Positions 1,795-59,191 of a stretch of DNA of 64,000 nucleotides are shown piece by piece. The notes under the pieces are model-generated. The model was not told where the DNA came from and did no database searches. It was given only the letters and a program-made list of their open reading frames with translations. The position numbers and the translations under genes are program-made. The number at the start of each line of letters is the position of its first letter. Positions within the stretch are counted from its first letter, which is position 1. The stretch covers positions 1,697 through 65,696 of the forward strand of contig JAVYRZ010000006.1 of the NCBI GenBank assembly GCA_038729465.1, given 5' to 3'. Source of the DNA: Thermoplasmata archaeon. GTDB lineage: Archaea > Thermoplasmatota > Thermoplasmata > Thermoplasmatales > ARK-15.

Positions 1795-2171
1795 AGTTAG
1801 TATTAGTAATCCTCCGATATTTAGATAGGAAATACGCGGACTGTTTTTGATAGATGCTTATATATAAGAAATAATTAAAACTTCCAAAGCAAAGCTTTAT
1901 CATCACAAAAAAGTATTGAAAAACATTTTGGTGATTGCAGGTTTGTTTGCAACTATTTTTATCAGAACATATCATTGTGAAAACTGTGAATAGGGTTAGA
2001 TAGAGATCTGAACACATCGCTAAACATGGCGAAGATAGAAACGTTAAAAGCAGGTTAGCGCAATCTGAATTTACGTTTGTGGAGATTGCAACATTCTGCT
2101 AGCATGAAATATATCCGTACACTCTTGGGCATAGGGGCAAGGAAACTCCGATACTTTAGCTGAGGAGTAGC
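1795..2171 (+). repeat. Repeat family F1, copy 1 (~377 bp, MITE-like or ncRNA-bearing element)
   Basis: Alignable end to end with 3674-4044. The left ~250 nt are about 90 percent identical by eye; the right ~130 nt are much more diverged. Ends carry TAATCCTC / GAGGAGTA inverted termini and a direct ~20-nt motif CTCCGATAyTTTAG..AGGA at 1812-1830 and 2146-2166. The element abuts the pyrI stop codon. Confidence 0.8.
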
Positions 2172-2639
2172 TCAAATTATGTTTTTTAAGATATCTTGTT
2201 GATCCATTTCTCGTTCACAATATTTGCATTTTATCTTAATTGGTTTTGAGGATATTGTTATAAATTCAGGTTCTATTGGTTCATTTTGATTAGTAACACA
2301 GCTTGGATTGGAGCATTTTACAATACCTTTTAGTGATTTCGGTACCTGAACTCTGTATTTCTCTGTTACTTCATAGTTTTTTATAATGTTTACTGTAGCA
2401 GAAGTAGTAATCAAAGATATTTTATTTATTTCTTTTTCGCCAATGTATCTATCTTCTATCTTTACAATATCCTTAAATTTTTTGGACTTACTGCTTACAT
2501 GCATTAAAATACTAATTGTAGATCCAATATCGTCTTCAATTCCCAATATCTTCAATACTTTCAGCGCGAAACCGCTATCTATATGATCTAGCACTATTCC
2601 GTTTTTTATTTTTTGAACTTTTAATGTTTGTTCATCCAT
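2172..2639 (-). CDS. pyrI: Aspartate carbamoyltransferase regulatory chain
   Basis: N-terminal KIKNGIVLDHI block and a C-terminal Zn domain (CSNPSCVTN...CKYCE). Immediately downstream of pyrB. Confidence 0.9.
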   Translation of the reverse strand: MDEQTLKVQKIKNGIVLDHIDSGFALKVLKILGIEDDIGSTISILMHVSSKSKKFKDIVKIEDRYIGEKEINKISLITTSATVNIIKNYEVTEKYRVQVPKSLKGIVKCSNPSCVTNQNEPIEPEFITISSKPIKIKCKYCEREMDQQDILKNII

Positions 2640-3673: not shown

Positions 3674-4044
3674 AGTTAGCAGTAATCCTCCAGTATTTAG
3701 ATAGGGGATATATGGACTGTTTTCAATAGATGATTATATATAAGAAATGATTAAAACTGTCAAAGCAAAGCTTTATCATCACAAAAAAGTATTAGAAAAA
3801 CCTCTTTTTGTTGCAGATTTGTTTGTAACTATTTTTATTAGAAAATATCATTGTGAAAACTGTGAATAGAATTAGACAGAGATCTGAACACATCGCTAAA
3901 CATGGCGAAGATAGAAATGATAAAAGTAGGAGTGGTGCAATTTGAATTACGCCTGTGACGGTTATCCTGCTAATATGAAATATCTCTGTAAAAGCAGATA
4001 TTCGTGATCCTAAAAAGCTCCGATGCTTTAGTTGAGGATTAGCT
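3674..4044 (+). repeat. Repeat family F1, copy 2 (~371 bp)
   Basis: Direct-orientation homologue of 1795-2171. Together the two copies bracket pyrBI. It lies 53 nt from the rpe stop codon. No ORF of 60 aa or more lies within it. Confidence 0.8.
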
Positions 4045-36920: not shown

Positions 36921-38306
36921 ATGAGAATTTTGTTTGTATCTCCTCCTACAAGTTCTGTAGTAAAAGAGATATTGAATACTACGACACCTCCTTTAGGCCT
37001 TGCGTATTTAGCTTCAGTTGCACGTCAGAAAGGAAATGAAGTAAGGATTATAGACTCTTTAGTGATGAATATGAGTTTTGATAATCTAGAAAAAGAGATC
37101 AAAAACTATAATCCTGATATCGTTGCGATTACCTCTACAACTTCGATGATATATGATGCTTATAAAGTTTCAGAGATATCTAAGAACATTAATAATAAAA
37201 TTAAAGTTGTGCTAGGTGGTCCGCATGTCACCTTTACACCTGATATCACATTTAGTGAAAATCCAAATGTTGATTTTATAGTTCGTGGCGAGGGAGAAAC
37301 TGTATTTTCAAATCTATTAGATTTTCTGGATGGAAATTATAATATAAGAGATATCAGAGGTTTAAGCTATAAGAAAGATGATAAAGTTATAAACAATCCT
37401 CCAGAATTATTGATAAAAGATATAGATACAATACCATTTCCTGCATTAGATCTATTGCCTATGGATAGATATATGATGGACAATAGACCTTTTGGAACAA
37501 TAATGACTTCTAGAGGCTGTCCTTACAACTGCTCATTTTGCTCATCGTCATTGCAATTTGGAAAACAGTGGAGAGGTCATTCAAGTGAAAGGGTAATAGA
37601 AGAATTAAAAATATTATCGGAAAAATATCGGAAAAAAGAGATAGAATTTCTGGATGATACGTTCACGTTGAACATGAAAAGAGCATTGGAACTCACTGAA
37701 AAGATGAGAAAAGAGAAGCTGGACATTACCTGGTCGGCGTCTTCAAGGGTTAATTTATTTACTGATGAATTAGCAAGATCCATGAAAAATGCCGGGCTAC
37801 ACACAATATATTTTGGAATAGAATCTGGTAGCCAAAAAACGTTGGATTTTATAGGGAAAGGAATAAATTTAGATCTGGCTATCCAGGCAGTGAAAAAAGC
37901 TAACAATGCAGGGCTGCATTCTCTTGGTTCATTTATAATAGGATTCCCTGATGAAACAATTGAAGATGTAAAAAATACAATTAATTTTTCCAAAAAATTA
38001 AAAGTGACGGTAGCTCAGTTTACCATTGCCACTCCCTATCCAGGTACCAAACTTTGGGATTATGTGACGGAAAAGAAGTTGTTGCTGTCAAGAGACTGGA
38101 GAATGTTCACGACTTTAAGCCCGATAATCAAGCTGAAAAATTTTACATCTAAGCAAATACAAACATGGCTTACGAAAGCATATATCAACTTTTATTTCAG
38201 GCCCGTGTACTTAATAAAAGATATTGTAAAAGAAAACGGATTTGCATTTCGTAGAATATTACATTTCCCAATACATTCAATCAAGTCACTCACTTCTAAA
38301 AGTTGA
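36921..38306 (+). CDS. B12-binding-domain radical SAM protein (461 aa), paralogue of 57384-58769
   Basis: N-terminal MRILFVSPP...PPLGLAYLAS...DIVAITS is a cobalamin-binding Rossmann-like domain. SRGCPYNCSFCSS is the CxxxCxxC radical SAM cluster motif. GGTGA lies 5 nt upstream of the ATG at 36921; the track start 36792 overlaps the previous gene. Confidence 0.85.
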   Translation: MRILFVSPPTSSVVKEILNTTTPPLGLAYLASVARQKGNEVRIIDSLVMNMSFDNLEKEIKNYNPDIVAITSTTSMIYDAYKVSEISKNINNKIKVVLGGPHVTFTPDITFSENPNVDFIVRGEGETVFSNLLDFLDGNYNIRDIRGLSYKKDDKVINNPPELLIKDIDTIPFPALDLLPMDRYMMDNRPFGTIMTSRGCPYNCSFCSSSLQFGKQWRGHSSERVIEELKILSEKYRKKEIEFLDDTFTLNMKRALELTEKMRKEKLDITWSASSRVNLFTDELARSMKNAGLHTIYFGIESGSQKTLDFIGKGINLDLAIQAVKKANNAGLHSLGSFIIGFPDETIEDVKNTINFSKKLKVTVAQFTIATPYPGTKLWDYVTEKKLLLSRDWRMFTTLSPIIKLKNFTSKQIQTWLTKAYINFYFRPVYLIKDIVKENGFAFRRILHFPIHSIKSLTSKS

Positions 38307-41968: not shown

Positions 41969-42016
41969 TATCAAAAGCACAATAAAGCTTATATATTAAA
42001 ATTGAATTGTAAAAAT

Positions 42017-42571
42017 ATGGCAATTTTAGATGAACAAAAAACAAATATTTGGAATATAGACCCTGCGCACACAAACATTGAGTTTTCTGTAAAACATATG
42101 ATGATCTCTTCAGTAAGGGGGAGATTTGAATCATTTCAAGGCAAGCTTTTTGGAAACGTAGACGAAATAGAGAATGGAAATATTGAGATTTTTATAGATT
42201 CAGCCTCAATCTCAACGAAAGAAAAAGATAGAGATAACCATCTTAGATCTCCAGATTTTTTCTATACCGAAAAATATCCAAAAATCAAGTTTATTAGCAG
42301 TAAAATAAAAAAGATTGATAATGATACCTATGATGTTACTGGTGATCTGACAATCAGAGAAATTACAAAACCAGTAACTGTAAGAGCAAAAATAGAAGGA
42401 AAAATTACGGATCCATATGGAAATGAAAGAATCGGAGTTAGTGTAAGTGGCTCTATAAATCGTACAGAATGGAACCTTAAATGGAATTCTATCGTTGAGG
42501 CTGGCGGATTAATGGTTGGAGAGATCGTAAAAATCAATGTAGAGCTTGAAGCTATAAAAACTAAAAAATAA
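42017..42571 (+). CDS. YceI-like (polyisoprenoid-binding) domain protein
   Basis: WNIDPAHTNIEFSVKHMMISSVRGRF and DRDNHLRSPDFF are YceI hallmarks. Start set at the ATG at 42017. Confidence 0.8.
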   Translation: MAILDEQKTNIWNIDPAHTNIEFSVKHMMISSVRGRFESFQGKLFGNVDEIENGNIEIFIDSASISTKEKDRDNHLRSPDFFYTEKYPKIKFISSKIKKIDNDTYDVTGDLTIREITKPVTVRAKIEGKITDPYGNERIGVSVSGSINRTEWNLKWNSIVEAGGLMVGEIVKINVELEAIKTKK

Positions 42572-45614: not shown

Positions 45615-46352
45615 CTATTTTTTAATCTCTTCTATTATCTCCCTCAATAGTGCTTCTACTCCCTTTACCTCTTCGAGGATTGTTCCGGTAACTATTATAT
45701 CTGCTCCAGAAATACAGATCTCTCTGGCAGTAACTGCATTTCTGATCCCACCTCCAACTATAAGAGGAATGGTTATATTCTCTTTTACTGATTTTATCAT
45801 TTGTGGCGAAGCAGACATTGCTGCTCCAGAGCCAGCCTCGATATAAAATAGTTTCATGCCCAGATACTCTGCTGCAATTGCATATTTTACAGCAGTTTCA
45901 ACATCCTCCCTCTTTATAAGCTCTGCCTCGCCAATCCTTCCAACAGTCATGCCAGGCTCGATCACAAGGTAGCCCATAGAGATAGGCTCTATCCCATAAT
46001 CTTTTATTATTTTAGCACCAGCTACCTGTTGCCTGATTACATATTTCAAATTTTTAGAGTTTAGCATACTCATAAAATATATTGCGTCTGCGTATCTGGA
46101 TATTGCTTTCACGCCATTTGGAAATAGAATGATCGGTGTGCTATAGCTCTTTTTTATCTTTAAGATCAAATTGTCAATAGTTTCAGATGTTATGTCTGTA
46201 GAACCGCCAATCATAATTGCGTCTGTGCCTGCGGCTATGCTTTTTTCTGCAAGCTCAAGACTTTTATCTATATTTTGTTTTGCGGGATCTATAAGGACCA
46301 TGTGTAATTTTTCAGATCTCAGTTTATTTTTTATATACTCATAAACTTTCAT
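45615..46352 (-). CDS. Geranylgeranylglyceryl phosphate synthase (PcrB/GGGPS family)
   Basis: TIM-barrel PcrB-like sequence with GGS and VGGGIR phosphate-binding motifs. Overlaps the UbiA-family gene. Confidence 0.8.
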   Translation of the reverse strand: MKVYEYIKNKLRSEKLHMVLIDPAKQNIDKSLELAEKSIAAGTDAIMIGGSTDITSETIDNLILKIKKSYSTPIILFPNGVKAISRYADAIYFMSMLNSKNLKYVIRQQVAGAKIIKDYGIEPISMGYLVIEPGMTVGRIGEAELIKREDVETAVKYAIAAEYLGMKLFYIEAGSGAAMSASPQMIKSVKENITIPLIVGGGIRNAVTAREICISGADIIVTGTILEEVKGVEALLREIIEEIKK

Positions 46353-47164
46353 AAAATGCCACCGATTACATATGATAGCAGGCCAATGATCATCGCATAC
46401 TTTGCAAATGTTTGGCCAGCTCTTGGACTTCTAAACTGTATAATCGCCGCATATAAAAAAATTATGTCTGCAATAATCACAATAATCAAATAATATATTT
46501 TCAAGAGTCCTAATGTGTATGGGATGGGGCTTATGGATATAGCTACAATTAACAATCCTACAGCGATAATGTTTGAGTTCCTTATCCCTATTTTTTTAGG
46601 TAGCGTTTTTCTGTTTATGTCCCCCTTAACATCTTCCACATCTTTTATTATCTCTCGCCCAAGATTAGAAAAAAAGGCCATCAACGCAAAAAAAGTGATA
46701 ATGTATACTTTATCAAACAGAACACCTGCAAAAATGAATAGAGACATTACCAATAGACTGATCACTACATTTCCAGATATTCCTGCATTTTTTAATCTAT
46801 ACTCATAAGAATACAATAAAAGTATTGCGATAACTGTAATAATAATTGCCAGGTAATTTGTAAAAATAGATATTATCAATGCGGCTATAAATACATATAT
46901 TGCCAAGTTCCTGGCGGTAGATCTTTTGATAAGCCCTGAAGGAATAGGTCTTTTTGGATGGTTTATTTTATCCAGATCTGCGTCATAATAATCATTTATG
47001 ATATTTCCTCCAGCAGTGACTAAAAACGTTATTGCAAATCCTATTATGATCAATTGAAAATGTATGTAAAATTCTAATCCATATAATATTATGGCCACAA
47101 CTAAAATAGATACCCCTGACATCAAACAGTTAATAGGTCGAATGATCTTTAAATATGGATTCAT
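46349..47164 (-). CDS. UbiA-family prenyltransferase, digeranylgeranylglyceryl phosphate synthase-like
   Basis: NDYYDADLDKINHPKRPIPSG is the first Asp-rich motif. There are 8-9 TM segments. It is adjacent to GGGPS. Confidence 0.8.
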   Translation of the reverse strand: MNPYLKIIRPINCLMSGVSILVVAIILYGLEFYIHFQLIIIGFAITFLVTAGGNIINDYYDADLDKINHPKRPIPSGLIKRSTARNLAIYVFIAALIISIFTNYLAIIITVIAILLLYSYEYRLKNAGISGNVVISLLVMSLFIFAGVLFDKVYIITFFALMAFFSNLGREIIKDVEDVKGDINRKTLPKKIGIRNSNIIAVGLLIVAISISPIPYTLGLLKIYYLIIVIIADIIFLYAAIIQFRSPRAGQTFAKYAMIIGLLSYVIGGIL

Positions 47165-54842: not shown

Positions 54843-55037
54843 TTAGACCCATCCAACACGGTCTATTTCTCTTTCTTTTTTTGTTTTTTTCTTGTATTCT
54901 TTATAATGTTCTTTGCATAAGTGTGCTCTTTTTTCTCCTTCTTTCAAATTGAATATTTTCATTGCTTTATCTTTTCCTACTGTTTTGTAAGATTCTTCAT
55001 TGCATCCGGAAACACTACATGTTTTTGTTTCTGCCAT
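54843..55037 (-). CDS. Small basic Zn-finger protein (64 aa)
   Basis: CSVSGC...HLCKEH putative metal ligands and a K/R-rich C-terminus. It is preceded by the F1-related leader. Confidence 0.6.
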   Translation of the reverse strand: MAETKTCSVSGCNEESYKTVGKDKAMKIFNLKEGEKRAHLCKEHYKEYKKKTKKEREIDRVGWV

Positions 55038-55080
55038 AATATTTACCTCAACAAAGTTACATTATGTTGTAATATGTGAA

Positions 55081-55225
55081 CTACCCCTCAGCTAAAGCAT
55101 CGGAGCTTCCTGCTTCAACGACCGCTCTCTGCTAGTACGGATATGTTCCCTACTTGCAGGATGTCGCGATCTCTGCAGGCGTGAATTCGGATTACATTCA
55201 CCCTACTGTGCTGGTTATTTTTATC
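55081..55225 (-). ncRNA. Diverged GC-rich copy of the F1 right-hand module; candidate structured RNA or 5' leader of 54843-55037
   Basis: Its reverse complement aligns with 2040-2171 and 3915-4044. It shares the blocks GATAAAAG, CATATCCGTAC and GCTCCGATGCTTTAGCTGAGG. Two hairpins are conserved in all three copies. TTTATAAA and TTATATAA boxes lie just upstream at 55228-55255. It ends 43 nt before the ATG of the Zn-finger gene. Confidence 0.5.
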
Positions 55226-55721
55226 AGCAATGTTATATAACACGCAGATGTTTATAAACATTTTTATTGATTGCTATGCCGGTAATATAAGTTAGATTTT
55301 TAACAATTATTTCTAAAATGTAGCAAAAATTATCTAAAAAATAAGCAATGAGCATATAAAAGAGCAAAATATTCTCGCACTCAATTTCCGGCATGGTATT
55401 GAGGAAAATCAGTGCATCTTCTTTCTGAAGATCAGAGAATTACTGCTTCTCTCAAATTTCTAACAGCATTTAACTTTTTTATCCTCTTTCTTTGCAAAAA
55501 TTGACCTTGAATTTCTGCAATACCTATTTATCTTTTATAAAAATGAAGATTACTGGGTTCATGTATAAATAAAGTACTAACATCTTTTCCAATCTGTCAA
55601 ATAGGGCTTTTTGCTAAAAATTTAAAAAATACAAAATATAATTTTAACAATTTTTGTAATAAATATTTATATATTTGTTAATAATTATCATAATTATAAT
55701 AATTAGAATAATGTGAAAAGC

Positions 55722-55883
55722 ATGACTAATAAAGAAGTATCTGGAACTTATCACAACTGTCCGGAAGACTTTTTACAGGCAGTGGAGCTAGAAAATATGA
55801 TTCTAGATATCTTTATAAACGGCCCAGAAAGATCTATGTTGGGCAGACAATCAATGATTATTGAACAGAACAATGTTATATAA
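55722..55883 (+). CDS. Small ORF (53 aa, absent from the ORF track) directly upstream of the radical SAM/SPASM gene; candidate precursor peptide or gene remnant
   Basis: Hand translation gives MTNKEVSGTYHNCPEDFLQAVELENMILDIFINGPERSMLGRQSMIIEQNNVI. It stops 13 nt before the ATG at 55897. Coding status is unproven. Confidence 0.3.
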   Translation: MTNKEVSGTYHNCPEDFLQAVELENMILDIFINGPERSMLGRQSMIIEQNNVI

Positions 55884-55896
55884 GAAGGTGACAAAA

Positions 55897-57387
55897 ATGG
55901 TTGAAAAAGTTGATGAAAATGTGGTCTTGCAGGAAGGCGGTAAAATAGATACAACGAAGCTTGTATCACAGTTTCAGAAGATTGTTGACAACAGATTTGC
56001 AAAATTCATTATGAAAAGAATGACCACGCCAAAAAAATTCGAGCATACTCTAGCTGTATTTGCAGGTGTTGAAAAACCTAATTCTGTAGGAGAAAAAATG
56101 GAAGTTAAAACCATAGAGGCAGCCTTGGGAAGAGCGTTAAAGACATTTGGCATAAATGATATGGCAGCGGTGAAAAATGCATTGAATGAACCTTTTGTCA
56201 GGAAGGGTGTTGCGTTAACGCTCAGGTCAGTAGCAAAGTACGGGCTGACGAGGCCACAGGTTTTCGAAGCACCTTTGCTCATAGTCTGGAACATTACTAA
56301 GCAATGTAATTTAAAATGTTTGCACTGCTATGCAAACGCTGGTCCTTACAAACATAAGGATGAATTGTCTTTAGAGGAAAAATTGAATGTGATAGACCAA
56401 CTTGATGAAGCGGGAGTGACGATGATATCATTCTCTGGAGGAGAACCCTTGATCAGCCCAGATTTTTGGAAAGTAGCAGAGTATGCGTCAAAAAAAGGTA
56501 TGTACACAACGATTGCTACAAATGGAACACTGCTGACAAAAGAGAATGTTGAAAGATTGAAAAACATTGGAATAAGATATGTGGAAGTAAGCCTTGATGC
56601 CCCGGAACCAAAGACGCACGATATGTTCAGAGGTGTGGAAGGAGCTTGGCAGAGAACAGTAGACGGTATAAAGAATGTAGTTCAATCAGGGGCATTCGAT
56701 ACTGCTATTGCAACCACGGCCACAAAATACAATATTGGTGAAATTCCTCAGATGATAGACATTGCAATAGAGCTAGGCGTGAAAAAGTTTATAGTGTTTA
56801 ATTTTGTTCCCACAGGCAGAGGAAAGGATATAATTGCCGAGGATTTATCCCCCAAAGAGCGGTCTGATCTGTTGAATTATCTCTATGACAGATGGCAAGA
56901 AAAGAAAATTGACATATTTTCAACGAGTCCAACATATTCGCAAGTAGGTATTGAAAGGGTTCTTGCAGGAACTGGAAAAACGTATTCACCCACTCACTTT
57001 GCATCTGCAGATTATGGTGAAACAGGAGTTGGATTAGCAGAATTTATAGGTGGTTGCGGTGCAGGAAGGCTCTATGCGTCCATAGAAGACAATGGAGATA
57101 TAGGTCCATGCGTATTTCTTCCGATAAAGGTTGGAAACATAAGGGAAAAGAGTTTTAAAGAGATATGGGAAAATTCTAAAGATCTTCAGCAATTAAGAAA
57201 TAGGGATCTTTACGAAGAAAACTGCAAATCATGTGTGTTTAGAAATCCTTGCGGTGGATGTAGAGCAAGGGCATACGGCTACTTTGGCAATTATCTTGCA
57301 CCGGATCCAGGCTGCACTTACAATCAAAAAATGTATGATGGGATAATGAAAGAAGTGTACGTTACTGCTGTTGGAGGAAAGAAATGA
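55897..57387 (+). CDS. Radical SAM enzyme with a C-terminal SPASM-type auxiliary-cluster domain and a ~130-aa N-terminal extension
   Basis: WNITKQCNLKCLHCY is the CxxxCxxC motif, followed by FSGGEPL. The C-terminus reads GGCGAG...GPCVF...CKSCVFRNPCGGCRARAY (SPASM-like). GGTGA lies 7 nt upstream of the ATG at 55897; the track uses a TTG at 55861. Confidence 0.85.
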   Translation: MVEKVDENVVLQEGGKIDTTKLVSQFQKIVDNRFAKFIMKRMTTPKKFEHTLAVFAGVEKPNSVGEKMEVKTIEAALGRALKTFGINDMAAVKNALNEPFVRKGVALTLRSVAKYGLTRPQVFEAPLLIVWNITKQCNLKCLHCYANAGPYKHKDELSLEEKLNVIDQLDEAGVTMISFSGGEPLISPDFWKVAEYASKKGMYTTIATNGTLLTKENVERLKNIGIRYVEVSLDAPEPKTHDMFRGVEGAWQRTVDGIKNVVQSGAFDTAIATTATKYNIGEIPQMIDIAIELGVKKFIVFNFVPTGRGKDIIAEDLSPKERSDLLNYLYDRWQEKKIDIFSTSPTYSQVGIERVLAGTGKTYSPTHFASADYGETGVGLAEFIGGCGAGRLYASIEDNGDIGPCVFLPIKVGNIREKSFKEIWENSKDLQQLRNRDLYEENCKSCVFRNPCGGCRARAYGYFGNYLAPDPGCTYNQKMYDGIMKEVYVTAVGGKK

Positions 57388-58769
57388 AAATACTTTTTGT
57401 TTCACCTCCAACGGATTCTGCAATAAAGAGTGTTATTGGCACTACAGGTCCGCCACTTGGGTTAGCATACCTTGCATCTGTGGCAAGATCAAAGAGTCAT
57501 GATGCAAAAATTGTAGATTCGCTTGTGGAAAACCTTACTTTTGAAGAGCTCAGAAAAATTATGGAACAATATTCCCCAGATGTGATAGCCATTACATCTA
57601 CAACTTCAATGATTCCGGATGCTTATGAAGTGGCAAAGATTGCAAAGGATATTTTCCATGGTACTGTAACAGTGATAGGCGGTCCGCATGTCACTTTTGT
57701 ACCTGAACAGACATTGCAGGAAAGCCCTAACATTGATTATGTGGTTAAGGGTGAAGGGGAAATAGCTTTTTCAGGCATACTTGATATACTTGAAAAAAAG
57801 AAGGATCCTAAAGAGATAAGAGGTATTGCCTACAGGAAGGGAAATGGCATAATGAATAATCCACCGGAGACTCTTATAAGTGATGTAGACTCAATACCAG
57901 AACCTTCATGGGATTTACTGCCAATGGATAAATACGAGATAGACAATACCCAATTTGGAACAATAATGACTTCTAGAGGGTGCCCATATAACTGTATATT
58001 TTGCTCATCGTCATTGCAATTTGGAAAACAGTGGAGAGGGCATTCAGTTGAACGTGTAATTGACGAACTGAAAACTTTAAGATACAAATACAATAAAAAG
58101 GATATTGAGTTTCTTGACGATACGTTCACACTTAATATGAAGAGAGCTATTGAATTAACAGATAGGATTTACAAAGAGGGCATTGATATAAGGTGGTCTG
58201 CATCAGCGAGAGTGAACCTTTTCAATGAGGATATTGCAAAAAACATGAAAAAAGCGGGAGCGCATACAGTATACTTTGGAATTGAATCAGGATCTCAGAA
58301 AATTCTGGATTTCATTGGCAAAGGCATTACACTAGACCTTGCAAAATCGTCTGTAAGAAAGGCAAACAATGCTGAATTATATACGTTAGGATCTTTCATC
58401 ATAGGTTTTCCGGATGATACCGTAAAAGACATAAAAACGACAATTAAGTTCTCGAAGGGCATTGGCGTAACCGTTGCGCAATTCACTATTGCCACACCAT
58501 ATCCAGGCACAAGGCTCTGGGATTATGTCATGGAGAATAAACTTCTACTAAGTATGAACTGGAGAAAATTTACAACATTATCGCCTGTGATGAAACTTCG
58601 GAATTTCACACCGGATCAGATACTCAAATGGCTATCTTGGGCATATCTATCATTTTATGTTCGTCCTCTTTATCTGATGAGGGATATAGCAAAAACGCAT
58701 GGTTTTGTTTTTAAAAGGCTAATACCCTATGCAAAGAAGGCAATGAACCTTGATATTATGGGTGAGTAA
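57384..58769 (+). CDS. B12-binding-domain radical SAM protein (461 aa), paralogue of 36921-38306
   Basis: MKILFVSPP...GPPLGLAYLAS...DVIAITS plus SRGCPYNCIFCSS. About two-thirds aa identity to the paralogue by eye and identical length. ATGA overlap with the SPASM gene. Confidence 0.85.
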   Translation: MKILFVSPPTDSAIKSVIGTTGPPLGLAYLASVARSKSHDAKIVDSLVENLTFEELRKIMEQYSPDVIAITSTTSMIPDAYEVAKIAKDIFHGTVTVIGGPHVTFVPEQTLQESPNIDYVVKGEGEIAFSGILDILEKKKDPKEIRGIAYRKGNGIMNNPPETLISDVDSIPEPSWDLLPMDKYEIDNTQFGTIMTSRGCPYNCIFCSSSLQFGKQWRGHSVERVIDELKTLRYKYNKKDIEFLDDTFTLNMKRAIELTDRIYKEGIDIRWSASARVNLFNEDIAKNMKKAGAHTVYFGIESGSQKILDFIGKGITLDLAKSSVRKANNAELYTLGSFIIGFPDDTVKDIKTTIKFSKGIGVTVAQFTIATPYPGTRLWDYVMENKLLLSMNWRKFTTLSPVMKLRNFTPDQILKWLSWAYLSFYVRPLYLMRDIAKTHGFVFKRLIPYAKKAMNLDIMGE

Positions 58770-58771
58770 CT

Positions 58772-59191
58772 ATGGAAAACAATGGAATTTTTGCTATAAT
58801 GAAAAAATTAATGCAAGAGATGTGCCTAAGTGAGGCACCATGCACGATTTATTCTGTTCTAGCAATCTCAGAGAAGTCCATGAGCATAATGGAAATATCT
58901 GAGAAAACTGGTTATTCTCTACCAATGATCTATTCTTCTATTAGAGAATTGATCGAGAATAACCTTGTGGAGAAAATAAAGAATGGAAAGAACACTGAAT
59001 ATATTGCTAACATTAACTTTATAGAGGTATTCGAAAAACGAAGAAAAAAAATCATGGAAAAATTTATTGAGCCTCTTGCAAACATGGATTTGAAAAATTA
59101 CCCACAGAATGTTAGAATAAGAGAAATAAAAGAATATGCAAATACTCTCTATGAATATTTCATAAAAATAAATAAGCTGAATAATAAGTGA
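58772..59191 (+). CDS. Winged-helix (TrmB/MarR-like) transcriptional regulator
   Basis: The CTIYSVLAISEKSMSIMEISEKTGYSLPMIYSSIRELIENNLVEK pattern is HTH plus wing. It starts 2 nt after the radical SAM gene. Confidence 0.55.
   Translation: MENNGIFAIMKKLMQEMCLSEAPCTIYSVLAISEKSMSIMEISEKTGYSLPMIYSSIRELIENNLVEKIKNGKNTEYIANINFIEVFEKRRKKIMEKFIEPLANMDLKNYPQNVRIREIKEYANTLYEYFIKINKLNNK

What the first reader, a model, noticed from the sequence alone, without database searches (positions are those of the whole stretch)
55722..59191. GC-shifted cassette: small ORF, N-extended radical SAM/SPASM, B12-binding radical SAM and wHTH - candidate archaeal peptide-maturation or lipid-tailoring system
Seen in sequence: four same-strand, tightly packed genes. 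Gaps are 13 nt, a 4-nt overlap and 2 nt. The first is a 53-aa ORF that the track missed. The second carries one CxxxCxxC radical SAM motif and a Cys-rich SPASM-type C-terminus. It also has ~130 extra N-terminal residues, about the size and position of a RiPP recognition element. The third is a cobalamin-binding-domain radical SAM enzyme and the fourth a winged-helix protein. I hand-counted two pairs of homologous 60-nt lines from the two B12 radical SAM paralogues. The cassette copy (57384-58769) gave 28/60 and 29/60 G+C; the copy at 36921-38306 gave 23/60 and 21/60. The cassette is also preceded by about 1.1 kb of non-coding DNA split by one small gene, which is unusual for this genome. Established knowledge: SPASM radical SAM enzymes are mostly peptide maturases (PqqE, AlbA, MftC and similar). 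B12 radical SAM enzymes methylate or cyclise unactivated carbons, both in RiPPs and in archaeal lipids; the GDGT ring synthases GrsA/GrsB are radical SAM proteins of this kind. Inference: this is either a RiPP-like locus, which would be rare and largely undescribed in archaea, or a horizontally acquired lipid-tailoring module.
Basis: partly seen in the sequence, partly recalled or inferred. Interest (0 to 1): 0.7.

Follow-up and report, generated by a model that had tools for sequence, protein, structure and literature searches.

The report
Archaeal GMGT lipid cross-linking and methylation operon
This is not a peptide-maturation locus but a copy of a recently characterised archaeal membrane-lipid operon: a GMGT synthase (Gms), which cross-links the two tails of tetraether lipids, a cobalamin-dependent lipid-tail methylase (Gmm family) and a small regulator, so it is an ordinary new member of a known system.

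Summary
The RiPP reading fails and the lipid-tailoring reading holds, but the families are Gms and Gmm, not GrsA/GrsB.

- **55897-57387** is an AhbD-like radical SAM/SPASM enzyme with a conserved ~127-residue N-terminal domain. The model shows six helices and no strand. This is the published architecture of GMGT synthase (Gms). It is 66% identical to the protein of Thermoplasma strain Kam2015, which Garcia et al. list as Gms-bearing. It is 54% identical to a Palaeococcus Gms homologue.
- **57384-58769** is a B12-binding radical SAM protein. It is 61% identical to the gene that follows gms in a Palaeococcus gms/B12-rSAM/Grs-like cluster. Homologues sit beside gms in many archaeal phyla, which is the Gmm (GMGT methylase) pattern.
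- **58772-59191** is a TrmB/MarR-like regulator, kept only in close relatives.
- **The 53-aa ORF** exists only in same-species genomes. It stops after 20 codons in a relative whose Gms is 95% identical, and is absent in one at 86%.
- **The GC excess** is modest. It recurs in every relative examined and comes with ordinary codon usage, so it is not evidence of recent transfer.
- **36921-38306** is a lineage-specific duplicate of gmm.

Novelty and interest are low.

The parts
55640..55721 (+). Conserved AT-rich promoter-like block (TATA-like TTTATATA) upstream of the operon
   Evidence: Best-conserved non-coding stretch between the window, L010 and L011, and partly L001. Its role as the archaeal promoter is inferred, not mapped.
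55722..55883 (+). 53-aa ORF inside a ~175-nt leader; most likely non-coding or species-specific, not a precursor peptide
   Evidence: No Pfam or NCBIfam hit. In L010 (Gms 95% identical) the same ATG reaches a stop after 20 codons. In L011 the ORF is 39 aa and divergent. In L001 the region is absent. An exhaustive HMMER search found only the identical 53-aa protein plus repeat-driven hits in giant proteins. No significant RNA structure (z -1.1).
55884..55891 (+). Shine-Dalgarno-like GAAGGTGA, 5 nt before the gms ATG
   Evidence: GGTG is conserved before the start codon in the window, L010 and L011. This supports 55897 as the start.
55897..57387 (+). gms: GMGT synthase homologue (radical SAM/SPASM, 496 aa) with an N-terminal six-helix lipid-binding-type domain
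   Evidence: Literature.
57384..58769 (+). gmm-family B12-binding radical SAM enzyme (461 aa), overlapping gms by 4 nt (consistent with translational coupling)
   Evidence: CX3CX2C at C200/C204/C207. Literature.
58772..59191 (+). TrmB/MarR-like winged-helix protein (139 aa), candidate local regulator
   Evidence: Pfam TrmB above its cut-off. Weak match to MJ223 and TcaR. Kept as the third gene in L010, L011/12 and L001-3 at 82%, 66% and 52.5% identity, and in no other locus examined.
36921..38306 (+). Stand-alone gmm paralogue (461 aa) in a housekeeping context
   Evidence: 64.6% identical to the cassette copy. Close orthologues only at 92% and 86%. Its clade is sister to the cassette clade in a neighbour-joining tree. 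Neighbours are a KaiC-like ATPase, a THUMP protein, tRNA-Phe and DUF373.

Best explanation
The cassette is a gms-gmm membrane-lipid modification operon of a low-GC Thermoplasmata archaeon.

**Gms (55897-57387).** It would take a finished tetraether lipid (GDGT) into a hydrophobic pocket formed with its N-terminal six-helix domain. [quoted passage not shown] With its two SPASM auxiliary clusters it would forge a C-C bridge between the two biphytanyl tails, giving an H-shaped GMGT.

**B12-rSAM (57384-58769).** It overlaps gms by 4 nt, which is consistent with translational coupling. It would then add methyl groups to the tail through methylcobalamin and radical chemistry, as Gmm does.

**wHTH protein.** It is the likely local regulator.

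**Second gmm copy (36921-38306).** It is a lineage-specific duplicate with possibly different substrate or position preference.

**Shown here:** domain architecture, cluster ligands, fold, homology and synteny.
**Taken from the literature:** the chemistry of Gms and Gmm.
**Inferred:** activity of these particular proteins, operon transcription from the conserved AT-rich block, and regulation by the wHTH protein.
For: **Gms assignment**
1. The published definition is an AhbD homologue with a ~100-aa N-terminal extension (COG4001) forming a lipid pocket. The domains are a six-helix N-domain, an RS domain, a bridging region of two helices plus a beta-hairpin, and SPASM.
2. The window protein's best NCBIfam match is AhbD, at 294 bits against a 500-bit cut-off.
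3. The AF2 model (pLDDT 86.8) has exactly six N-terminal helices (20-115). It has bridging helices at 319-334 and 346-356, a hairpin at 363-371, and then SPASM.
4. It has 10 Cys: CX3CX2C plus 7 SPASM Cys, all invariant.
5. The extension is conserved family-wide. The median distance from the first Met to CX3CX2C is 126 residues over 92 loci.
6. It is 66% identical to the homologue in Thermoplasma sp. Kam2015. The Garcia et al. preprint lists that strain as carrying hbs (=gms).
7. It is 54% identical to Palaeococcus sp. WP_456321645.1 and 53% to a Pyrococcus kukulkanii homologue.

**Gmm assignment**
8. A homologous B12-rSAM lies next to the gms homologue in 13 of 80 genome loci. These span Bathyarchaeia, Nitrososphaerota, Thermoprotei, Archaeoglobi, Methanobacteriaceae and Methanomicrobia. 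This is the gms-gmm clustering and taxon range the paper reports.
9. The Palaeococcus locus L093 reads TBP, gms, B12-rSAM (462 aa), Grs-like rSAM (536 aa). Its gms/B12 genes overlap by the same 4 nt. The window's enzyme is 61% identical to that B12-rSAM.
10. The fold is that of cobalamin-dependent rSAM enzymes such as AprD4, TsrM, MgmA and TokK.
Against: - No direct comparison was possible with the experimentally tested proteins: Tg-Gms WP_062369926.1, Pf-Gms AAL80771.1, METOK_RS04425 and Tg-Gmm WP_062369928.1. These Thermococcales sequences did not appear in the top 120 hits. Membership therefore rests on proxies.
- Gmm homologues include enzymes with other activities: Cgm and Pgm (GDGT methylases) and Ted (a desaturase). 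The exact reaction of either window copy is therefore not settled.
- Li et al. argue that gms is restricted to obligate anaerobes. The lifestyle of this organism is unknown.
- No lipid data exist for this lineage.
- No Tes or Grs gene lies in the window.
Confidence: 0.85

Rival explanations
1. Gms is correctly assigned, but the adjacent B12-rSAM (and/or its paralogue) is not a GMGT methylase. It could be a GDGT methylase of the Cgm/Pgm type, a Ted-like tetraether desaturase, or an enzyme with an undescribed tail modification.
For: Gmm homologues have diverged in function. Cgm is 34% and Ted 31% identical to Tg-Gmm. One third of gmm-bearing genomes lack gms. The window carries two copies that are 64.6% identical. 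L001 has an MFS transporter next to the cassette, a neighbour type reported for cgm.
Against: The cassette copy is 61% identical to the gms-adjacent enzyme of Palaeococcus. That is far above the 31-34% separating Gmm from Cgm and Ted. The 4-nt gms/B12 overlap is conserved from Thermoplasmata to Thermococcales. The published searches kept Cgm homologues above 495 aa and Ted homologues of at least 500 aa, whereas this protein is 461 aa.
Confidence: 0.15
2. RiPP-like cassette: the 53-aa ORF is a precursor peptide. It would be recognised by an RRE in the N-terminal extension of the SPASM enzyme and further methylated by the B12-rSAM.
For: The layout is superficially typical of a RiPP locus. SPASM relatives by sequence and fold include PqqE, SuiB, SkfB and CteB. 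NCBIfam lists RiPP methylases among weaker hits for the B12 enzyme.
Against: The ORF is truncated to 20 codons in the relative whose Gms is 95% identical. It is divergent at 90% and absent at 86%, and absent in all other lineages that keep the enzyme pair. The only true library match is the identical protein from the same species. The N-domain is six helices with no beta sheet and gives no PqqD hit. Homologues of this enzyme have been shown to act on GDGT in vivo and in vitro.
Confidence: 0.02
3. Tetrapyrrole enzymes: an AhbD/NirJ-type haem or haem d1 decarboxylase plus a BchE-like cyclase.
For: The best NCBIfam matches are AhbD (294 bits), NirJ2 (278 bits) and BchE (249 bits). One distant homologue lies next to a TP_methylase gene.
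Against: All scores are far below the curated cut-offs of 500, 500 and 481 bits. The family-wide N-terminal extension is what separates Gms from AhbD in the literature. No tetrapyrrole genes adjoin the cassette.
Confidence: 0.03
4. The three-gene module is a horizontally acquired island in this genome.
For: - gms and gmm rank first and third of 56 genes in GC. All three genes are in the top 7 for GC3.
- The module sits in different genomic contexts in L001 and L011 than in the window and L010.
- Gmm-type proteins are ~60% identical across Thermoplasmata, ANME-1, Methanoculleaceae and Thermococcales.
- A repeat element lies just upstream.
Against: Codon-usage distance is ordinary. The same GC excess over the flanks occurs in four relatives. 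It is carried largely by codon positions 1 and 2, which points to amino-acid composition. Synteny with the 95% relative is intact on both sides.
Confidence: 0.15

Closest known systems
GMGT synthase Gms (also called Hbs). Tested examples: Thermococcus guaymasensis WP_062369926.1, Pyrococcus furiosus AAL80771.1, Methanothermococcus okinawensis METOK_RS04425. Sources: Garcia et al. PNAS 2024 (PMC11214058) and Li et al. Nat Commun 2024 (PMC11186832).
   Same: AhbD-like radical SAM core. Seven-Cys SPASM domain for two auxiliary clusters. N-terminal extension of 100 residues or more, modelled as six helices. Bridging helices plus a beta-hairpin. Clustering with a B12-rSAM gene.
   Different: Only homology and a model are available here, with no activity data. 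The host is a low-GC Thermoplasmata lineage. Identity to the tested proteins could not be measured. The nearest named proxies are 66% (Thermoplasma Kam2015) and 54% (Palaeococcus sp.).
GMGT methylase Gmm (also called Hgm; T. guaymasensis WP_062369928.1) and its functional relatives Cgm (Saci_1785), Pgm and Ted
   Same: B12-binding domain plus a radical SAM domain with CX3CX2C. Position immediately downstream of gms. The taxon range of gms-adjacent homologues matches the published Gmm range.
   Different: This genome has two copies. The substrate (GMGT or GDGT) and even the reaction type are unverified. At 461 aa it is shorter than the length limits used in the published Cgm and Ted homologue searches.
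AhbD, haem b synthase (NCBIfam TIGR04545)
   Same: Closest curated sequence model for residues 140-488.
   Different: The score is 294 bits against a 500-bit cut-off. AhbD lacks the N-terminal six-helix domain.
RRE-bearing SPASM peptide maturases (SuiB, CteB, PqqE with PqqD)
   Same: The radical SAM/SPASM fold. Foldseek E-values are 1e-16 to 1e-17 with TM-scores (normalised to the query) of 0.50-0.61.
   Different: The N-domain is all-helical, not a PqqD-like winged helix with a beta sheet. No conserved precursor gene is present.

Membership tests
Gms (GMGT synthase) | AhbD-like radical SAM core with a CX3CX2C motif | tested here: met
   Pfam Radical_SAM 8.4e-29. The best NCBIfam alignment is AhbD over residues 140-488. 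C137/C141/C144 are invariant.
Gms (GMGT synthase) | SPASM domain able to bind two fully ligated auxiliary [4Fe-4S] clusters | tested here: met
   Pfam SPASM 1.2e-12. Seven invariant Cys at 387, 405, 443, 446, 452, 455 and 473.
Gms (GMGT synthase) | N-terminal extension of about 100 aa forming a separate six-helix domain (annotated COG4001 in the literature) | tested here: met
   The AF2 model has helices at 20-29, 32-41, 45-55, 64-83, 89-95 and 99-115, with block-mean pLDDT 73-96 over residues 21-120. The extension is conserved in 35 homologues and 92 loci. The COG4001 label itself could not be checked because no COG library was available.
Gms (GMGT synthase) | [quoted passage not shown] | tested here: met
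   Model elements H319-334, H346-356, E363-366 and E369-371, compared with the description.
Gms (GMGT synthase) | Falls in the Gms clade, apart from AhbD outgroups, with E <= 1e-80 to Tg-Gms | tested here: inconclusive
   Tg-Gms and AhbD sequences were not obtainable. Proxies: 66% identity to the Thermoplasma Kam2015 protein, whose genome the authors list as hbs/gms-bearing. 54% (548 bits) to Palaeococcus sp. WP_456321645.1. 49% to the Korarchaeum cryptofilum homologue.
Gms (GMGT synthase) | Converts GDGT to GMGT | not testable with these tools
   Requires expression and LC-MS.
Gmm (GMGT methylase) / Gmm-homologue superfamily | B12-binding domain plus radical SAM domain, at least 400 aa | tested here: met
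   Pfam B12-binding 1.4e-25 and Radical_SAM 5.7e-23; 461 aa. CX3CX2C at 200-207. The fold matches cobalamin-dependent rSAM enzymes.
Gmm (GMGT methylase) / Gmm-homologue superfamily | Gene clusters with gms | tested here: met
   The 4-nt overlap with gms is seen here and in L001, L004, L010, L011 and Palaeococcus L093. Homologues are adjacent to gms in 13 of 80 genome loci.
Gmm (GMGT methylase) / Gmm-homologue superfamily | Inside the Gmm clade (E <= 1e-65 to Tg-Gmm; separate from MoeK5, Cgm and Ted) | tested here: inconclusive
   Tg-Gmm was not obtainable. Proxy: 61% identity (584 bits) to the gms-adjacent B12-rSAM of Palaeococcus. Identity to the gms-adjacent homologues of distant lineages found in the genome scan is 35-43%.
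Gmm (GMGT methylase) / Gmm-homologue superfamily | Methylates GMGT tails | not testable with these tools
   Requires co-expression with Gms and LC-MS.
GDGT ring synthase GrsA/GrsB | Homology to Grs-type B12-rSAM proteins | tested here: not met
   The 539-aa and 536-aa rSAM proteins beside gms in L013, L093, L014 and L084 are taken as Grs-like. This is inferred from the published gms/grs/gmm cluster. They hit the window only at E 0.019 and 0.11 and the cassette enzyme at E 0.001 over 24 residues.
RiPP radical SAM/SPASM maturase with RRE | PqqD-like RiPP recognition element (three-stranded sheet plus helices) | tested here: not met
   Residues 1-127 contain no strand in the model. No PqqD or other Pfam hit in the N-terminus at E <= 0.01.
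RiPP radical SAM/SPASM maturase with RRE | Conserved, syntenic precursor peptide gene | tested here: not met
   The 53-aa ORF is broken, divergent or absent in relatives with Gms 95%, 90% and 86% identical, and absent elsewhere.
AhbD (haem b synthase) | Score at or above the TIGR04545 equivalog cut-off | tested here: not met
   294.3 bits against a 500-bit cut-off.

The most novel reading that the evidence does not exclude
This low-GC Thermoplasmata lineage has duplicated gmm and attached a dedicated TrmB/MarR-type regulator to a gms-gmm operon. The two methylases may have split their roles, for example one acting on GMGT and the other on unbridged or cyclised GDGT, or at different tail positions. 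The operon may be switched by an environmental signal, possibly through the variable ~175-nt leader. If the organism, like cultured Thermoplasma, is not an obligate anaerobe, it would also contradict the proposal that GMGT synthesis is confined to obligate anaerobes.
Probability: 0.25. Interest if true: 0.4.

Novelty: new member of a known kind. Interest (0 to 1): 0.2.

Why it matters
GMGTs and their methylated forms are used as environmental and palaeotemperature biomarkers and are thought to stiffen archaeal membranes. Assigning a gms-gmm operon to another Thermoplasmata lineage adds one likely producer to the source list for these biomarkers. It also gives a compact three-gene module, with a candidate regulator and a second methylase copy, that could be tested by heterologous expression. 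It does not open a new question. Thermoplasmata Gms (74 sequences) and Gmm (34 sequences) were already counted in the original studies, and a Thermoplasmata gene cluster with a transcription factor was already drawn there.

Tried and rejected
- **Tes (GDGT-MAS).** Considered because of its size and lipid role. The PDB match to 7TOL is only 37 bits over the RS core, so it was rejected.
- **AFDB fold search.** Tried in order to reach named orthologues, but the library was unavailable.
- **Reaching Tg-Gms and Pf-Gms.** I searched with the Thermococcus MAG homologue. The tested proteins were not in the top 120 hits. Cluster look-up still showed that this clade holds Palaeococcus, Thermococcus sp. 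and Pyrococcus kukulkanii proteins.
- **Supplementary tables of the PNAS paper.** Not held.
- **Leader as a structured RNA.** z -1.1 and little covariation, so rejected.
- **Bacterial promoter and terminator scan.** Uninformative for an archaeon.
- **Small ORF's library hits.** The hits to giant proteins are a short 'NCPxx[IF]xQxVEL' motif repeated many times in those proteins. I treat them as chance or motif-level resemblance.
- **The 178-aa ORF upstream of gms in Thermoplasma.** It is unrelated to the window's wHTH protein.

Full report
**Observation.** The 53-aa ORF is 55722-55883. After a 13-nt gap comes a 496-aa radical SAM/SPASM gene at 55897-57387. A 461-aa B12-binding radical SAM gene at 57384-58769 overlaps it by 4 nt. 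After a 2-nt gap comes a 139-aa winged-helix gene at 58772-59191.

Pfam confirms the domains. The window is from a low-GC (about 33%) Thermoplasmata archaeon. The SPASM protein is 100% identical to MEM0160726.1 and other accessions named 'MAG: Thermoplasmata archaeon'.

**What gene 2 is.** All NCBIfam matches fall below their curated cut-offs. The best is AhbD, at 294 bits against a 500-bit cut-off, aligned only to residues 140-488. The ~127 N-terminal residues are not an accident of gene calling. They align across 35 homologues at 47-86% identity, from Thermoplasmata, Archaeoglobales, Korarchaeota, Methanophagales and others. In 92 fetched loci the median distance from the first Met to CX3CX2C is 126 residues.

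Two 2024 papers describe exactly this protein type as GMGT synthase (Gms). It is an AhbD homologue with a ~100-aa N-terminal extension (COG4001) that forms a hydrophobic lipid pocket. It was shown by heterologous expression and in vitro to cross-link the two tails of GDGT. [quoted passage not shown]

My AlphaFold model (pLDDT 86.8, pTM 0.88) reproduces this. It has six helices between residues 20 and 115 and no strand before residue 128. Bridging helices lie at 319-334 and 346-356, a hairpin at 363-371, and then SPASM. The protein has ten cysteines: CX3CX2C plus the seven SPASM cysteines, all invariant. Foldseek finds only generic SPASM enzymes in the PDB, and no Gms structure is solved.

**Link to named Gms proteins.** I could not obtain the experimentally tested sequences. 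Proxies are strong. The window protein is 66% identical over residues 18-488 to the homologue in Thermoplasma sp. Kam2015. The preprint of Garcia et al. names that strain as carrying hbs (=gms). It is 54% identical (548 bits) to Palaeococcus sp. WP_456321645.1 and 53% to a Pyrococcus kukulkanii homologue. Garcia et al. counted 74 Thermoplasmata Gms sequences.

**What gene 3 is.** The gene pair is conserved with the same 4-nt overlap in relatives whose Gms is 95%, 90%, 86% and 66% identical. Among 80 loci from a genome-wide scan, 13 carry a homologue of gene 3 (35-43% identical) beside the gms homologue. These are in Bathyarchaeia, Nitrososphaerota, Thermoprotei, Archaeoglobi, Methanobacteriaceae and Methanomicrobia. 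That is the clustering and taxon range reported for the GMGT methylase Gmm.

Methanobacteriaceae are informative here. From my own knowledge, they are not known to make ringed GDGTs. Methanothermobacter is reported to make methylated GMGTs. A gms-adjacent B12 enzyme in that family therefore fits a methylase better than a ring synthase.

A Palaeococcus locus (L093) reads TBP, gms, B12-rSAM (462 aa), rSAM (536 aa). This matches the published T. guaymasensis cluster of gms, grs and gmm. The window's enzyme is 61% identical to the 462-aa protein. It shows no meaningful similarity to the 536/539-aa type (E 0.001 to 0.02). That second type also lacks the strong class-B methylase matches that Gmm's reported similarity to MoeK5 (E 9e-63) implies, so I read it as Grs. 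I therefore assign gene 3 to the Gmm family.

The fold is that of cobalamin-dependent rSAM enzymes, with a low-confidence helical C-terminus. One caveat applies. Gmm homologues include GDGT methylases (Cgm, Pgm) and a desaturase (Ted) at 31-34% identity. The exact reaction is therefore inferred, not shown.

**The paralogue.** 36921-38306 is 64.6% identical to gene 3. It has close orthologues only at 92% and 86%. In a neighbour-joining tree its clade is sister to the cassette clade, inside this Thermoplasmata group. It sits among housekeeping genes. It looks like a lineage-specific duplication.

**The small ORF.** It has no family match.
- In L010 (Gms 95% identical) the same ATG is followed by a stop after 20 codons, and the tblastn matches are split into three separate segments.
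- In L011 (90%) there is a divergent 39-aa ORF.
- In L001 (86%) the whole ~165-nt segment is missing, and the promoter-like block sits directly before gms.

The coding genes are 87-91% identical to L010 at the DNA level, whereas default blastn found no alignment for this segment. An exhaustive HMMER search of 1.84 billion representatives returned the identical protein from the same species, plus three giant repeat proteins that match a short motif. The segment is most simply a variable 5' leader. It has no significant predicted structure.

**The wHTH gene.** It is TrmB/MarR-like. It is kept as the third gene only in the close relatives, at 82%, 66% and 52.5% identity. It therefore diverges faster than the enzymes. 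A regulatory role is inferred. A transcription factor is also drawn in a published Thermoplasmata grsA-hbs-hgm-grsB cluster.

**GC and transfer.** gms (40.0%, z 2.3) and gmm (38.1%, z 1.65) are first and third of 56 genes. The wHTH gene is below average. GC3 is mildly raised in all three genes (z 1.3-1.7). Codon-usage distance is ordinary. The same excess over the flanks appears in L010, L001, L011 and Thermoplasma L004. It is therefore a property of these genes rather than a mark of recent acquisition.

The module does lie in different contexts in L001 and L011. Gmm-type proteins are about 60% identical across several euryarchaeal orders. Older transfer of the module therefore remains possible.

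**The long upstream spacer.** Compared with L010, the window has roughly 380 extra bases. These contain a ~120-nt GC-rich element (55072-55193). Other copies lie in the window (2062-2177), in Thermoplasma (two copies) and in L011/L012. The element gives a sub-threshold RAGATH-18 match.

**Verdict.** This is a gms-gmm lipid-modification operon with a local regulator. It is a new member of a system described in 2024. The RiPP reading is refuted.

Noticed in passing
window 55072-55193 (also window 2062-2177, partial 4015-4037; L004 763-882 and 9645-9759; L011 5569-5626): A ~120-nt GC-rich element is repeated within the window and conserved (71-91%) in other Thermoplasmata at unrelated positions. 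One Thermoplasma copy lies next to a 25-aa Cas12f1/TnpB-like fragment. It gives a sub-threshold Rfam RAGATH-18 hit (25.8 bits against a 44.9-bit threshold, E 0.043, minus strand) and only a weak consensus fold. It may be a mobile-element or small-RNA remnant. It accounts for much of the extra spacer relative to L010.
   Followed up: partly
window 45615-46352 (-), 46349-47164 (-), 42002-42571 (+): A PcrB-family gene (GGGP synthase type) and a UbiA-family gene (DGGGP synthase type) overlap by 4 nt about 9 kb upstream of the cassette. A YceI-like (polyisoprenoid-binding) gene lies nearby. Core ether-lipid genes thus share the window with gms and gmm, though not as one cluster.
   Followed up: partly
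window 54843-55037 (-): A 64-aa lysine-rich ORF with a CX4C...CX2H pattern is divergent from the operon. It is conserved in L010 (92% at the DNA level) and has no family match. It could be a small zinc-binding protein.
   Followed up: no
window 55722-55880 compared with P0315 (3055 aa): Residues 9-46 of the small ORF resemble a motif (NCPxx[IF]xQxVEL...) repeated many times in giant proteins. The library E-value of 8.8e-10 comes from summing repeats, and single alignments reach only 1e-4. It is probably a chance resemblance.
   Followed up: partly
P0274, P0275, P0297, P0277 and L093 8001-9389: Gmm-type proteins of Thermoplasmata, ANME-1/Methanophagales, Methanoculleaceae and Palaeococcus are about 60% identical to each other. 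The gms-adjacent copies found in other phyla by the genome scan are only 35-43% identical. This suggests exchange of the gms-gmm module among euryarchaeal orders.
   Followed up: partly
L004 2279-2815: In Thermoplasma sp. Kam2015 a 178-aa ORF with no Pfam match ends exactly where gms starts. It is unrelated to the window's wHTH protein or small ORF.
   Followed up: partly
L001 9303-10454; L011 4875-8209: The gms-gmm-wHTH module lies beside an MFS transporter in one relative and beside TauE, DsrE and sulphur-transport genes in another. The three genes appear to move as a unit.
   Followed up: no
L013 4326-5945, L014 7427-9046, L084 1584-3083, L093 9505-11115: A second, very divergent rSAM type of about 540 aa lies next to gms in Thermococcales, a Thermoplasmata MAG and an Archaeoglobus MAG. 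It gives only a weak Radical_SAM hit and no Pfam B12-binding hit. It is probably the ring synthase Grs.
   Followed up: partly
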